This document shows, in pieces, positions 30,061 through 35,987 of a stretch of 39,506 nucleotides of DNA. Within the stretch, counting starts at the first letter, position 1. Each line of letters begins with the position of its first letter. The stretch lies in assembly GCA_001786745.1 (NCBI GenBank), contig MFTF01000012.1:1-39506 (forward strand). Reading direction: 5' to 3'. The notes under the pieces are model-generated. The model was given only the letters and a program-made list of their open reading frames with translations, had not been told where the DNA came from and searched no databases. The position numbers were made by a program, and so were the translations under genes. The DNA comes from Candidatus Nomurabacteria bacterium RIFCSPHIGHO2_01_FULL_36_23. GTDB lineage: Bacteria > Patescibacteriota > Minisyncoccia > Phycocordibacterales > UBA9973.

Positions 30061-30405
30061 TTAATAAGCGCACTGCGCATCGATTTTTGCCGCAAGAATA
30101 AAATCGTTTTCGGAGAGACCGCCGATGGCGTGCGTGGAAAGTTTTAGCAAAACTTTGTTGTAGTGTATGTGAATATCCGGATGATGACCTTCTCTTTCTG
30201 CAATCTCTGCCACATTATTTACAAAATTAATCGCTCCGATAAAATCTTTGAACTTATATTCTTTGGAGATTTGTTTAACATCTTCGCTCAAAGTCCACTC
30301 GGAAACCTGTGCTATGTATTCCATGGCACTCGCACGGTCAAGTAGCTTGATTCCCCTCCCTTCGCAAGCAACACACATTTTCTTAAGTAAATTGTTTTTA
30401 CTCAT
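30061..30405 (-). CDS. phhB: Pterin-4a-carbinolamine dehydratase
   Basis: AEREGHHPDI, STHAIGGLSENDFILAAKID. Confidence 0.93.
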   Translation of the reverse strand: MSKNNLLKKMCVACEGRGIKLLDRASAMEYIAQVSEWTLSEDVKQISKEYKFKDFIGAINFVNNVAEIAEREGHHPDIHIHYNKVLLKLSTHAIGGLSENDFILAAKIDAQCAY

Positions 30406-30537: not shown

Positions 30538-30933
30538 ATGAGTAAAGGAATGAATAAAAATACATCAATTAGAGTTGTTAAACTGATTGAAGGAATAGGC
30601 CCAAAAATCGACTGGAATACAAAGACAAATAAACAACTCGTGGACGCTGTGTTAGCTATTAAAAATGCTGATGAAGCAAAGCGCTTCTTGCGTGACCTGA
30701 TGACTGAAAGTGAGATTGAAGAATTCGCCAATCGTCTTGAGACTGCTCGCCTACTCGTGGGGGATGTACAATATAATACCATTATTCAAAATACTGGCCT
30801 TTCTTCCACAACTATCGCCCGAATATCAAAATGGCTTAAGGGCTCGCTCGGTGGCTATCGTCTTATCCTCGCTCGTCTTTCGAACCATCATCACAACCGT
30901 CCTAAACTTGGGAAAGGGTTGTCTTTGAGTTGA
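30538..30933 (+). CDS. TrpR-like YerC/YecD (HisR-type) repressor with His-triplet tail
   Basis: FLRDLMTESEIEEFANRL..A.LL...Y..I...TGLSSTTIARIS..L....GGY; tail NHHHNRP. Confidence 0.9.
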   Translation: MSKGMNKNTSIRVVKLIEGIGPKIDWNTKTNKQLVDAVLAIKNADEAKRFLRDLMTESEIEEFANRLETARLLVGDVQYNTIIQNTGLSSTTIARISKWLKGSLGGYRLILARLSNHHHNRPKLGKGLSLS

Positions 30934-30962
30934 TATTTATTTTATAATTATTTTTCGAAACC

Positions 30963-31004
30963 AACCCCTTCTCAAGTTTGAGAAGGGGTTTAAATTTGTT
31001 CTTT
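30963..31004 (+). terminator. Attenuator-type terminator between repressor and hisI
   Basis: Perfect 12-bp stem AACCCCTTCTCA/TGAGAAGGGGTT followed by an interrupted T-rich tract. Confidence 0.75.
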
Positions 31005-31021
31005 GAAAGGAAGGAAAACCA

Positions 31022-31399
31022 ATGATCGTCAAAGTAAATTGCATTCAACCTGACTTTACAAAACAGGGCGGGTTGATACCAGTGATCATCCAAAAACACA
31101 ACCAAGAGCAGAGAGGCGAAGTTTTGATGCTTGCCTATTCTAATAGTGAGGCCTATAATCTGACCAAAAAAACTGGATTAGTTCACTTCTGGTCACGTTC
31201 CAGAAAAAAACTCTGGAAGAAAGGAGAAACGTCTGGCAATCTATTGGTAGTAAGACAGATTTGGATGGATTGTGATCAAGACACTCTACTCTACGTAGTT
31301 ACTCCAAGGGGAACAGTATGTCATTTAGAAAAAAGTAGCTGTTTTTCCCAAGTTACTTATGTGGCGGGGGAAGAAATCGGGACAGTCTATACCACCTAA
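31022..31399 (+). CDS. hisI: Phosphoribosyl-AMP cyclohydrolase
   Basis: GLIPVIIQ, VLMLAY, FWSRSR..LWKKGETSG, DCDQD, CH....CF; purine-rich RBS. Confidence 0.93.
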   Translation: MIVKVNCIQPDFTKQGGLIPVIIQKHNQEQRGEVLMLAYSNSEAYNLTKKTGLVHFWSRSRKKLWKKGETSGNLLVVRQIWMDCDQDTLLYVVTPRGTVCHLEKSSCFSQVTYVAGEEIGTVYTT

Positions 31400-34620: not shown

Positions 34621-34899
34621 TTAAAATATTCTTCCATTGATAATTTCGTATACTATCCGACGATGAGCAATTGCAAAAATTTTTATTTTATTGTCTTCTA
34701 TACGAAAAATTATCCTATAATCACCAACTCGCAACTTAAAATAATTCTTGAGCGATTTTCGTAGCGGTTTTCCATATAAGTCTGGTTCACTTGCCAATTT
34801 TGTCTCAAAAGCTTGTTTTATGCGAACTTTGTACGAACCTGATATCTTGGGAATATCAATTTTTACAACCTTATCTACATATATGATTTCATAGGTCAT
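34621..34899 (-). CDS. RelE/ParE-family toxin
   Basis: GKPLRKSLKNYFKLRVGDYRIIF, IAHRRIVYE. Confidence 0.92.
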   Translation of the reverse strand: MTYEIIYVDKVVKIDIPKISGSYKVRIKQAFETKLASEPDLYGKPLRKSLKNYFKLRVGDYRIIFRIEDNKIKIFAIAHRRIVYEIINGRIF

Positions 34900-34906
34900 G
34901 CAATAT

Positions 34907-35128
34907 CTATGCCCATGTTTGTTTGTGAGTTAAAAAACGAGCATTTTTTGTGTCACGCTCACTCGCCATTTTATCAAAAGCAATATCTTCTTCAATTTCA
35001 AGAGCAAGCCCCAAAAGATACACCGCTTTCGTAGCCTGTGGCATATTGTCACGCTTAGCAATACGAGAAAGCATTGTATCCAAACTCGATGATAAAGAAA
35101 TATTTATCCTTTTTTTTATTGTTGTCAT
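34907..35128 (-). CDS. Antitoxin (ribbon-helix-helix-like)
   Basis: KRINISL strand, LEIEED, LTHKQTW; immediately upstream of the toxin. Confidence 0.85.
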   Translation of the reverse strand: MTTIKKRINISLSSSLDTMLSRIAKRDNMPQATKAVYLLGLALEIEEDIAFDKMASERDTKNARFLTHKQTWA

Positions 35129-35134
35129 GTAAAT

Positions 35135-35164
35135 AGTGTATCAAAAGTGTATCACCTTTGTCAA
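35135..35164 (-). promoter_or_regulatory. TA promoter with direct-repeat operator
   Basis: TTGACA-N18-TACACT, 6 nt before ATG; TGATACACT twice at 12-bp period. Confidence 0.7.
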
Positions 35165-35185
35165 ATAGTTTATGTGGATAAATAA

Positions 35186-35230
35186 AAACAACGAGCAACA
35201 TTTCCTCCTTTCGGATGTTGCTCGTTGTTT
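35186..35230 (-). terminator. Intrinsic terminator after orphan gene
   Basis: Perfect 16-bp IR AAACAACGAGCAACAT/ATGTTGCTCGTTGTTT with T-rich tail on the minus strand. Confidence 0.75.
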
Positions 35231-35287: not shown

Positions 35288-35629
35288 TTAGAAATGTGCA
35301 AAATTGTAAAAACGGCCGGCACCAAAAACCTCTTTGCAAATAACATCTACCACAACCGGCGCTTTGTCGGGGTTCTCCCTTGTCCAGTCGTTGGAAGATA
35401 GCGCTCTAGCCAATCGTTCTCCAAACTTTTCTAGAGTATCTGCTTCTCTAAAAAACATTGCGCTTGCAGAGGCAATAACAGTTGCCTCTTTTACTTCTCC
35501 CGAGGACCTGTTAGTTTCTGTGACCTCCATCCTAAATAAGAGGATACATTTCTCATCGGTATACCAATCAAGTAATCCTGATTTGTATTCTTCTGTCTGA
35601 TGCGATTCGTATTTCTCGGTTTGTCCCAT
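35288..35629 (-). CDS. Hypothetical protein
   Basis: 113 aa, RBS GGAAGGGAG, downstream terminator; no family recognised. Confidence 0.7.
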   Translation of the reverse strand: MGQTEKYESHQTEEYKSGLLDWYTDEKCILLFRMEVTETNRSSGEVKEATVIASASAMFFREADTLEKFGERLARALSSNDWTRENPDKAPVVVDVICKEVFGAGRFYNFAHF

Positions 35630-35706
35630 TTCTTTTTCTCCCTTCCAAAGAACTAAATTCTGACCTCTATAAGAGACCAGTTGGAGGAGTCAAAATGTTA
35701 TAAAAA

Positions 35707-35796
35707 TTACTTCGGCACCTTGAAACAAGTCTCTTTTGAAAAGTTGCAATAGCCGTGATAATAAAAATTGATTTTTTGAAAAGTTTTGATATTCAT
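35707..35796 (-). CDS. Putative leader peptide 2 (29 aa)
   Basis: MNIKTFQKINFYYHGYCNFSKETCFKVPK; resembles leader 1. Confidence 0.4.
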   Translation of the reverse strand: MNIKTFQKINFYYHGYCNFSKETCFKVPK

Positions 35797-35811
35797 AAAT
35801 TTAAATGAAAC

Positions 35812-35835
35812 AAAAAAACCGCTCTGTGGGCGGTC
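35812..35835 (-). terminator. Attenuator terminator after leader peptide 1
   Basis: GACCGC-CCACAGA-GCGGTT followed by a T run. Confidence 0.75.
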
Positions 35836-35861
35836 TTTTGTGCTTGGTTTTAGTAAATTAA

Positions 35862-35930
35862 TTAGCAAAAAGAAGACCGTCCTATTGGGCAGGTGTAATA
35901 GTTCACAGAAAATTTAACTAATAAATTCAT
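35862..35930 (-). CDS. Putative leaderless leader peptide 1 (22 aa)
   Basis: MNLLVKFSVNYYTCPIGRSSFC; TTGACA-N18-TATTAT ends 6 nt before ATG. Confidence 0.6.
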   Translation of the reverse strand: MNLLVKFSVNYYTCPIGRSSFC

Positions 35931-35987
35931 GCTTTTATAATAGCATAATGCTTCCCATAGTGTCAACTTTTATGCGATGGTTCTTTT

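What the first reader, a model, noticed from the sequence alone, without database searches (positions are those of the whole stretch)
35630..35966. Tandem MN...YY..C leader peptides and attenuator ahead of an orphan gene
Seen (minus strand): promoter TTGACA-N18-TATTAT, then a leaderless 22-aa ORF whose 3' part GGACGGTCTT pairs 9/10 with the 5' arm of a terminator (35812-35835). A second 29-aa ORF follows, with the same MN start and YY at codons 12-13, then CTCCTCCAA (35681-35689), which could pair with the RBS (5+4 bp, 2-nt bulge). Leader 1 tail (NYYTCPIGRSSFC) parallels the repressor tail (NHHHNRPKLGKGLSLS). Inference: a lineage-wide modular attenuator design, here perhaps sensing Tyr/Cys or ribosome stress.
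Basis: partly seen in the sequence, partly recalled or inferred. Interest (0 to 1): 0.72.

Follow-up and report, generated by a model that had tools for sequence, protein, structure and literature searches.

The report
Tandem tyrosine-sensing attenuators before orphan gene
Two tiny reading frames with tyrosine codons, each followed by a switchable RNA hairpin, sit in series in front of a gene of unknown function in an ultra-small groundwater bacterium and likely let it be read only when tyrosine runs short, which is a textbook control mechanism in a doubled form that I found neither in the RNA family catalogue nor in the papers searched.

Summary
The sequence features are real, with one slip: leader 1's YY is at codons 11-12. 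The element is conserved. I found 17 homologues in Nomurabacteria genomes and metagenomes; 16 of 18 first leaders carry at least two adjacent Tyr codons. Nine of the 17 precede tyrosine genes (phenylalanine hydroxylase 6, tyrS 2, prephenate-dehydrogenase-like 1). Ribosome-constrained folding flips from antiterminator to terminator just after the Tyr run. Cysteine sensing is not supported: the cysteines are not conserved or lie past the switch point. The design is patchy (11 of 150 genus genomes), not lineage-wide. The 113-aa target has no homologue or confident fold. A boxA-like motif precedes the target in 9 of 9 tandem and 0 of 9 single loci. Nothing is shown experimentally. This scan noted Tyr attenuators in Patescibacteria before on other DNA, including a tandem one. 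Verdict: new variant of classical attenuation.

The parts
35937..35966 (-). sigma-70-type promoter TTGACA-N18-TATTAT with TG extension; predicted leaderless start at 35930
   Evidence: 11 of 12; 6-nt spacing commonest; similar promoters before homologous leaders
35862..35930 (-). leader ORF 1, 22 codons; Tyr codons 11-12 at 35900-35895
   Evidence: synonymous variation among homologues
35864..35882 (-). module 1 antiterminator 5' strand (region 2), inside the 3' part of ORF1; pairs with about 35844-35828
35812..35839 (-). intrinsic terminator 1 (regions 3:4 plus U tract)
35707..35796 (-). leader ORF 2, 29 codons, no SD; Tyr codons 12, 13, 16
35709..35735 (-). module 2 antiterminator 5' strand; pairs with 35696-35671
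   Evidence: 147 of 147 cells paired in 7 loci, one-side changes only
35681..35689 (-). CTCCTCCAA: part of antiterminator 2's 3' strand; possible anti-SD once released
35660..35680 (-). terminator 2 hairpin; U tract degenerate here (AATTTAGTTCTT), clean in 5 of 6 homologues
35643..35653 (-). boxA-like motif GTTCTTTGGAA (2 mismatches to GYTCTTTAANA), overlapping the SD
35638..35646 (-). Shine-Dalgarno-like GGAAGGGAG of the orphan
   Evidence: sequence
35288..35629 (-). 113-aa orphan ORF, the predicted regulated gene
35182..35230 (-). strong hairpin with U-rich tail closing the cassette (-25.1 kcal/mol)

Best explanation
This is likely a pair of classical ribosome-read transcription attenuators in series that sense charged tRNA-Tyr and gate a 113-aa orphan gene. 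Shown by sequence and comparison: promoter, two conserved short ORFs with Tyr runs, two mutually exclusive hairpin pairs, and tyrosine genes behind many homologues. Inferred: a 70S ribosome starts at the leaderless AUG. With Tyr plentiful it passes codon 14, covers the antiterminator strand, and terminator 1 forms. With Tyr-tRNA scarce it stalls at Y11-Y12, the antiterminator forms and RNA polymerase reads on. A second ribosome on ORF2 repeats the test at Y12/Y13. In this genome terminator 2 is weak, so its off state probably works partly by hiding the orphan's SD. Two gates on one signal would lower leak and sharpen the response. The orphan is most simply a recent replacement cargo in a mobile cassette; its own function is not established.
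For: 17 homologues; 16 of 18 first leaders with 2-4 adjacent Tyr and 8 of 9 second leaders; Tyr is 11% of residues in the 13 first and 9 second leaders counted, against 3.3% in long genes. Patterns containing no Tyr codons recovered leaders with Tyr in 5 of 5 hits (loci already known) and YYY in both leaders in 4 of 4 true hits among 11. Tyr codons vary TAT/TAC, and Ser/Val/Asn codons vary synonymously. Cargo of 17 homologues: phenylalanine hydroxylase 6, tyrS 2, PDH-like 1 (one hydroxylase locus is unpublished genome G129). Constrained folding gives antiterminator on a Tyr stall and terminator at the stop in 9 of 9 module-1 and 7 of 7 module-2 loci folded. The switch point falls 0-2 codons after the Tyr run in 11 of 11. 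G013 has a concerted change across regions 2, 3 and 4. SD opening cost rises from 1.8 (stall Y12) to 4.4 kcal/mol (stop).
Against: No expression, termination or ribosome data. Eight of 17 homologues and this locus precede genes with no shown Tyr role. Two leaders have one Tyr only (G100 YH, G061 CY). In the model any stall from codon 3 to 13 opens module 1, so specificity rests on conservation, not folding. The antiterminator is weak in L109 and G192 (36 of 300 shuffles as good) and only 0.33-0.55 probable in G069 and L109. Module 2 pairs show no two-sided compensatory change among 7 close sequences. ORF2 has no SD, and terminator 2 here is -6.6 kcal/mol with a broken U tract. G094's tyrS keeps what looks like its own promoter. 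C. glutamicum aroR has a Tyr codon yet does not respond to Tyr (PMC11802643, passage). Homologues are kin, not independent.
Confidence: 0.78

Rival explanations
1. Module 1 works, but the cassette here is a decaying relic: module 2 has lost its terminator and the orphan is a captured or degenerating ORF with no role in tyrosine supply.
For: Broken U tract 2, degenerate boxA-like motif, weakened region 1 (Arg to Cys14); no homologue of the orphan; the trpS-aspS interval is a variable slot in relatives; contigs of another organism join the trpS end to the downstream promoter without these 830 bases; no phhA, PDH, DAHP synthase or DTD found in G000, 94% complete.
Against: All 21 antiterminator-2 pairs and 7 hairpin pairs are kept; the orphan frame scores best of six, has an SD and a closing hairpin, and 1 of 5000 shuffles is stop-free. 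This rival overlaps the best explanation on module 1.
Confidence: 0.3
2. The leaders sense general translation slowing (ribosome stress, a drug, or a nascent-chain arrest by the KFS-N-YY motif) rather than Tyr-tRNA.
For: Any stall at codons 3-13 opens module 1 in the model; K and F codons are invariant in the 11 KFS-type leaders; cargo includes a kinase, SLOG and a tRNA-editing-like domain.
Against: The KFS motif is lost in 5 of 18 leaders that keep Tyr runs; 9 of 17 cargos are Tyr genes; the Tyr run lengthens to 3-4 in 8 leaders.
Confidence: 0.1
3. Dual Tyr/Cys sensing.
For: Two Cys in each leader of this genome; G061 has Cys before Tyr and G183 has Cys two codons after YY.
Against: Cys14 not conserved; terminal Cys codon is a pairing arm; stalls at C14 or later favour termination; no Cys genes among 17 cargos.
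Confidence: 0.03
4. Chance: an ordinary terminator and promoter with incidental short ORFs.
For: Short ORFs and hairpins are common in AT-rich intergenic DNA; 6 of 71 terminators in G000 have a stronger upstream duplex.
Against: Conservation in 17 other loci with synonymous codon changes and Tyr-gene cargo.
Confidence: 0.02

Closest known systems
Classical amino-acid leader-peptide attenuators (E. coli trpL; Rfam Trp_leader RF00513, Phe_leader RF01859; uORFC-8-2 Cys attenuator before cysS, PMC8632094 passages)
   Same: Short ORF with tandem sensor codons, antiterminator arm in its 3' part, intrinsic terminator, cognate biosynthesis or synthetase genes downstream in homologues.
   Different: Tyr codons; leaderless start; doubled; not a member of those Rfam families (23 bits against cut-offs 41 and 55).
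Salmonella mgtCBR tandem attenuators mgtM/mgtP (PMC3641672, abstract and section 11)
   Same: Two leader ORFs in series, the second possibly also hiding the RBS.
   Different: mgt senses two signals (ATP, Pro) and lacks intrinsic terminators; here both leaders carry Tyr and both have intrinsic-type hairpins.
Leaderless polycysteine sORF attenuators of mycobacteria (bioRxiv 10.1101/834739, abstract)
   Same: Leaderless sensor ORF; stalled ribosome frees an RBS-sequestering structure (resembles module 2 here).
   Different: Cys, translational control, single module.
C. glutamicum aroR-aroF attenuator (as summarised in PMC11802643, passage)
   Same: Leader with a Tyr codon before an aromatic pathway gene.
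   Different: Phe-Tyr-Phe leader reported to respond to Phe, not Tyr.
boxA / NusB-NusE sites before protein genes (bioRxiv 10.1101/091223, passages)
   Same: GYTCTTTAANA-like motif within 50 nt of a start codon; nusB present in G000.
   Different: That mechanism ends in Rho-dependent termination; no rho above cut-off in G000; here the motif follows an attenuator and is degenerate.

Membership tests
Classical ribosome-mediated transcription attenuator | Short upstream ORF with clustered codons for one amino acid | tested here: met
   YY or longer in 16 of 18 first and 8 of 9 second leaders
Classical ribosome-mediated transcription attenuator | Mutually exclusive antiterminator and intrinsic terminator | tested here: met
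   module 1; module 2 pairing:
Classical ribosome-mediated transcription attenuator | Second terminator has a proper U tract in this genome | tested here: inconclusive
   tail AATTTAGTTCTT here, clean in 5 of 6 homologues
Classical ribosome-mediated transcription attenuator | Sensor codons placed so a stalled ribosome frees the antiterminator strand | tested here: met
   assuming 15 nt covered from the A-site codon
Classical ribosome-mediated transcription attenuator | Downstream gene serves the sensed amino acid | tested here: inconclusive
   9 of 17 homologues yes; the target here is an orphan
Classical ribosome-mediated transcription attenuator | Leader translation and amino-acid-dependent read-through in vivo | not testable with these tools
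   only indirect: synonymous variation
Rfam Trp_leader / Phe_leader | Score at or above gathering threshold | tested here: not met
   23 bits against 41 and 55
T-box or other Rfam cis-element | Covariance-model match over threshold | tested here: not met
   none of 16 weak matches reaches its gathering score
boxA (NusB-NusE site) | Match to GYTCTTTAANA with C4 kept | tested here: inconclusive
   2 mismatches here, 0 in L100/L104/L109; 54 of 538 G000 upstream regions reach 2 or fewer mismatches; rRNA leaders share a CTTTGAYAA core but 0 of 4 match my pattern
boxA (NusB-NusE site) | NusB-NusE binding | not testable with these tools
   nusB present; binding untested

The most novel reading that the evidence does not exclude
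Nomurabacteria use a portable expression cassette, attenuator(s) then boxA then SD, in which a Tyr- or His-starved ribosome opens transcription and a NusB-NusE site hands the polymerase an antitermination complex in a cell with no Rho. The cassette captures fast-changing cargo, and the 113-aa orphan is a new protein for coping with tyrosine shortage (scavenging or tRNA quality control) in a genome with no recognised Tyr pathway.
Probability: 0.17. Interest if true: 0.72.

Novelty: new variant of a known kind. Interest (0 to 1): 0.42.

Why it matters
It extends textbook attenuation to tyrosine in an ultra-small bacterium, with a leaderless start and two same-signal gates, and implies transcription-translation coupling in Patescibacteria. 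The leader also works as an annotation tag: genes behind it (stand-alone ThrRS-editing-like domains, a P-loop kinase, orphans) become candidates for tyrosine supply or tRNA proofreading. The boxA-like motif after attenuators would, if functional, link two control systems not described together in the papers I searched. The mechanism class is known and this scan has met it before, which limits surprise.

Tried and rejected
Orphan function: no Pfam family; one near-identical variant only; no Atlas hit; the one weak phmmer hit P0005 is a repetitive helical protein, judged spurious; single-sequence model pLDDT 49, no fold match; no similarity to the G133 or G033 orphans. Expression: no RNA holder listed, which is no evidence either way. 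Rfam: nothing over threshold in the window stretch or at the motif in six boxA-like loci (two distant tRNAs only). Idea that tyrS is generally under this leader: rejected, 1 of 36 parsed loci; 13 of 50 rows did not parse. Idea that ACT-insert TyrRS always has it: G026 and G076 do not, G030 and G012 did not parse. Module 2 in a family-wide draw: full-length only in G133 and G194 among 400. Genus scan for the boxA-like 13-mer: 46 matches against 33 for the reversed control; most of 30 loci viewed lay inside genes, so it is not rare or specific genome-wide. The 17 short blastn matches and the weak profile matches were not counted as homologues; those I viewed were generic terminators or AT-rich patches, and I did not view all. 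Seven of 11 metagenome hits were chance matches. My genome-wide terminator scan missed the His module, so it cannot bound the number of attenuators in G000. The lone pterin dehydratase at 30061-30405 as proof of a lost phhA: weak, since it sits after aspS in a relative too.

Full report
Setting. The window is contig C12 of G000 (556 kb, 36% GC, 94% complete). Related loci carry the title Candidatus Nomurabacteria. On the minus strand the order is trpS (36938-35988), the finding, a 113-aa ORF (35629-35288), a strong hairpin, a second leaderless promoter, an antitoxin-like ORF with a ParE-family gene, and aspS. In 20 relatives the DNA after trpS varies; aspS follows directly in two and after different inserts in many others. 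Contigs of another organism join the trpS end to the downstream promoter without these 830 bases (85% likeness, short sides). The element is therefore likely an inserted cassette.

Observation. Promoter, both ORFs, the 9-of-10 pairing, the terminator and the 5+4 RBS pairing are all present. YY is at codons 11-12 in ORF1. ATG 6 nt after the -10 box is the commonest spacing in this genome (20 of 58). No Rfam family reaches threshold.

Homologues. A DNA search of 212 genus genomes gave 26 with a match; 8 besides G000 were long matches at E of 2e-8 or better. A sequence-only profile over 150 genomes gave 11 full-length hits at E of 4e-10 or better, 5 of them new. A metagenome pattern on module 2's 3' part, with no Tyr codon in it, gave 11 hits, 4 genuine, each with both modules and YYY in both leaders. 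A genome pattern without Tyr codons gave 5 hits, all repeats of known loci. In total 18 loci: 9 tandem, 9 single. Sixteen of 18 first leaders have 2-4 adjacent Tyr; 8 of 9 second leaders do. The blastn and profile queries contained the Tyr codons, so only searches are free of that circularity. Among 11 KFS-type leaders Ser, Val/Ala, Asn and Tyr codons vary at third positions, as expected of translated sequence.

Cargo. First genes behind the 17 homologues: biopterin-dependent aromatic hydroxylase 6 (three followed by pterin dehydratase, Pfam-checked in two; one followed by PTPS and an SDR; one locus is unpublished G129), tyrS 2, prephenate-dehydrogenase-like 1 (below Pfam cut-off), stand-alone tRNA-Thr_ED 2, orphan then tRNA-Thr_ED 1, AAA_33 kinase-like 3 (Pfam run on one), SLOG 1, orphan 1. 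Reading the hydroxylase as phenylalanine hydroxylase, which makes Tyr, rests on established knowledge of that family. Nine of 17 are thus Tyr supply or charging genes. Most tyrS genes of the genus, including G000's, have no leader (1 of 36).

Module 1. With the ribosome-covered RNA held unpaired, a stall on Tyr gives the antiterminator and a ribosome at the stop gives the terminator in 9 of 9 loci folded. Scanning the stall codon, antiterminator probability in G000 is 0.96-1.0 up to codon 13 and 0.01 from Cys14; the drop lies 0-2 codons after the Tyr run in 11 of 11 (footprint of 15 nt assumed, in line with 12-15 nt in PMC3641672 section 11). The 2:3 duplex beats all but 0-2 of 300 shuffles in 14 of 18 loci and is weak in 4. 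Earlier stalls also open it, so folding alone does not prove Tyr specificity.

Module 2. ORF2's 3' half forms a 21-pair antiterminator with 35696-35671, competing with hairpin 35680-35660. All 147 and 49 cells pair across 7 loci, with one-side changes only, so the shuffle control is uninformative; slid controls fall to 38-54% and 18-45%. Five of 6 homologues have a clean U tract; G000 and G194 do not. G194 shifts the peptide frame while keeping the RNA, so RNA pairing rather than the peptide tail is conserved. CTCCTCCAA belongs to the antiterminator; released, it can pair with the SD (-10.4 kcal/mol here; -7 or better in 4 of 7), raising SD opening cost from 1.8 to 4.4 kcal/mol. G069 and G033 have different second modules with Tyr codons, which I did not fold.

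Cysteine. Not supported: Cys14 is Arg in most homologues, terminal and 'ETCFK' cysteines lie in pairing arms, and no cargo concerns Cys.

The orphan. It looks like a gene: best of six frames by codon score, 6.8% of genome windows score lower, 1 of 5000 shuffles stop-free. It has no family, homologue or confident fold. G000 shows no phhA, PDH, PDT, racemase, tRNA-Thr_ED (tblastn, tyrS control positive), and no PDH_N, DAHP synthase or DTD family hit, with the caveat of 94% completeness.

boxA-like motif. G(T/C)TC-T-(G/A)-A-type motif 22-32 nt before the cargo start in 9 of 9 tandem and 0 of 9 single loci; 4-13 of 5000 shuffles contain it. The pattern was chosen after seeing the tandem loci. As a test with the pattern fixed, 9 of 18 parsed His-tailed TrpR-like loci have it after their terminator (22 fetched, 4 not parsed); it is absent before the two hisS-like cargos (one is unpublished G083). 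Three copies match GYTCTTTAANA (bioRxiv 10.1101/091223, passages) exactly. Against: the G000 copy has 2 mismatches, reached by 54 of 538 upstream regions; 0 of 4 rRNA leaders match my pattern, though all show a CTTTGAYAA core by eye; the 13-mer is only 46 against 33 over its control. nusB is present, rho not above cut-off. Function is inferred only.

The repressor parallel. The TrpR-like gene 30538-30933 ends in HHH, an antiterminator arm and a terminator that switch on folding. It shares layout with the Tyr leaders, not sequence. Close homologues occur in 22 of 81 genomes.

Literature. No paper held all terms for Patescibacteria + attenuation + leader peptide or attenuator + tyrosine codons + leader peptide. 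Searches listed nothing on Tyr attenuators or boxA elements in Patescibacteria (listings only; the listings are environmental surveys). The library lacks most subscription papers, and I read no supplements; large motif tables such as those of PMC8632094 could hold related motifs. Seen: PMC1262725, PMC3845328, PMC8632094, PMC11802643, 10.1101/091223 (passages); PMC3641672 (abstract, section 11); 10.1101/834739 (abstract); PMC9413887 (listing). Earlier scan notes describe Tyr attenuators in Patescibacteria on other DNA, one tandem; they are leads, not support.

Verdict. A real, conserved, doubled Tyr attenuator of the classical type, gating an orphan in a mobile slot. New variant of a known kind; interest 0.42.

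Noticed in passing
window 30538-31399 (+): TrpR-like gene whose His-rich tail doubles as an attenuator leader, then terminator 30963-30990, boxA-like GTTCTTTGAAA at 30998 and a lone hisI-like gene; relatives put very different cargo in this slot.
   Followed up: partly
L076:835-1293(-), L107:2646-3116(+), L074:442-855(-): Stand-alone archaeal-type ThrRS editing domain (PF08915, DTD-like fold per PMC3845328) behind tandem Tyr leaders, with a convergent racemase-like ORF (named from sequence recall, not scanned) in G194 and L107; candidate D-Tyr-tRNA deacylase induced when L-Tyr is short.
   Followed up: partly
L003:1597-3021(+) and G030, G012, G026, G076: TyrRS with an internal insertion of about 50-90 aa (weak ACT match in G013) in 5 of 61 genus genomes.
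   Followed up: no
L120, L132, L139 (position about 1500): The boxA-like motif sits directly after a promoter with no protein gene following and no Rfam match at the site; possibly uncatalogued RNAs.
   Followed up: partly
window 30061-30405 (-): Pterin-4a-carbinolamine dehydratase without a detectable phenylalanine hydroxylase in this genome.
   Followed up: partly
window 34621-35164 (-): Leaderless antitoxin-like 73-aa ORF plus ParE-family gene with its own promoter, also inserted between trpS and aspS.
   Followed up: no
P0004: A strain variant was gene-called with a 40-aa false extension running over leader 2 and the hairpins, showing how annotation hides this element.
   Followed up: no
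L100, L104, L107, L109 between terminator 2 and cargo: A further conserved stretch GGTGAAGGAATCTACC...AAGTGATTCC that could form a hairpin just before the boxA-like motif; absent from G000.
   Followed up: no
G000 C5, C8, C11, C20, C22: Repeated hairpin CGGAAGC-N3-GCTTCCG used as a terminator-like element at several places.
   Followed up: no
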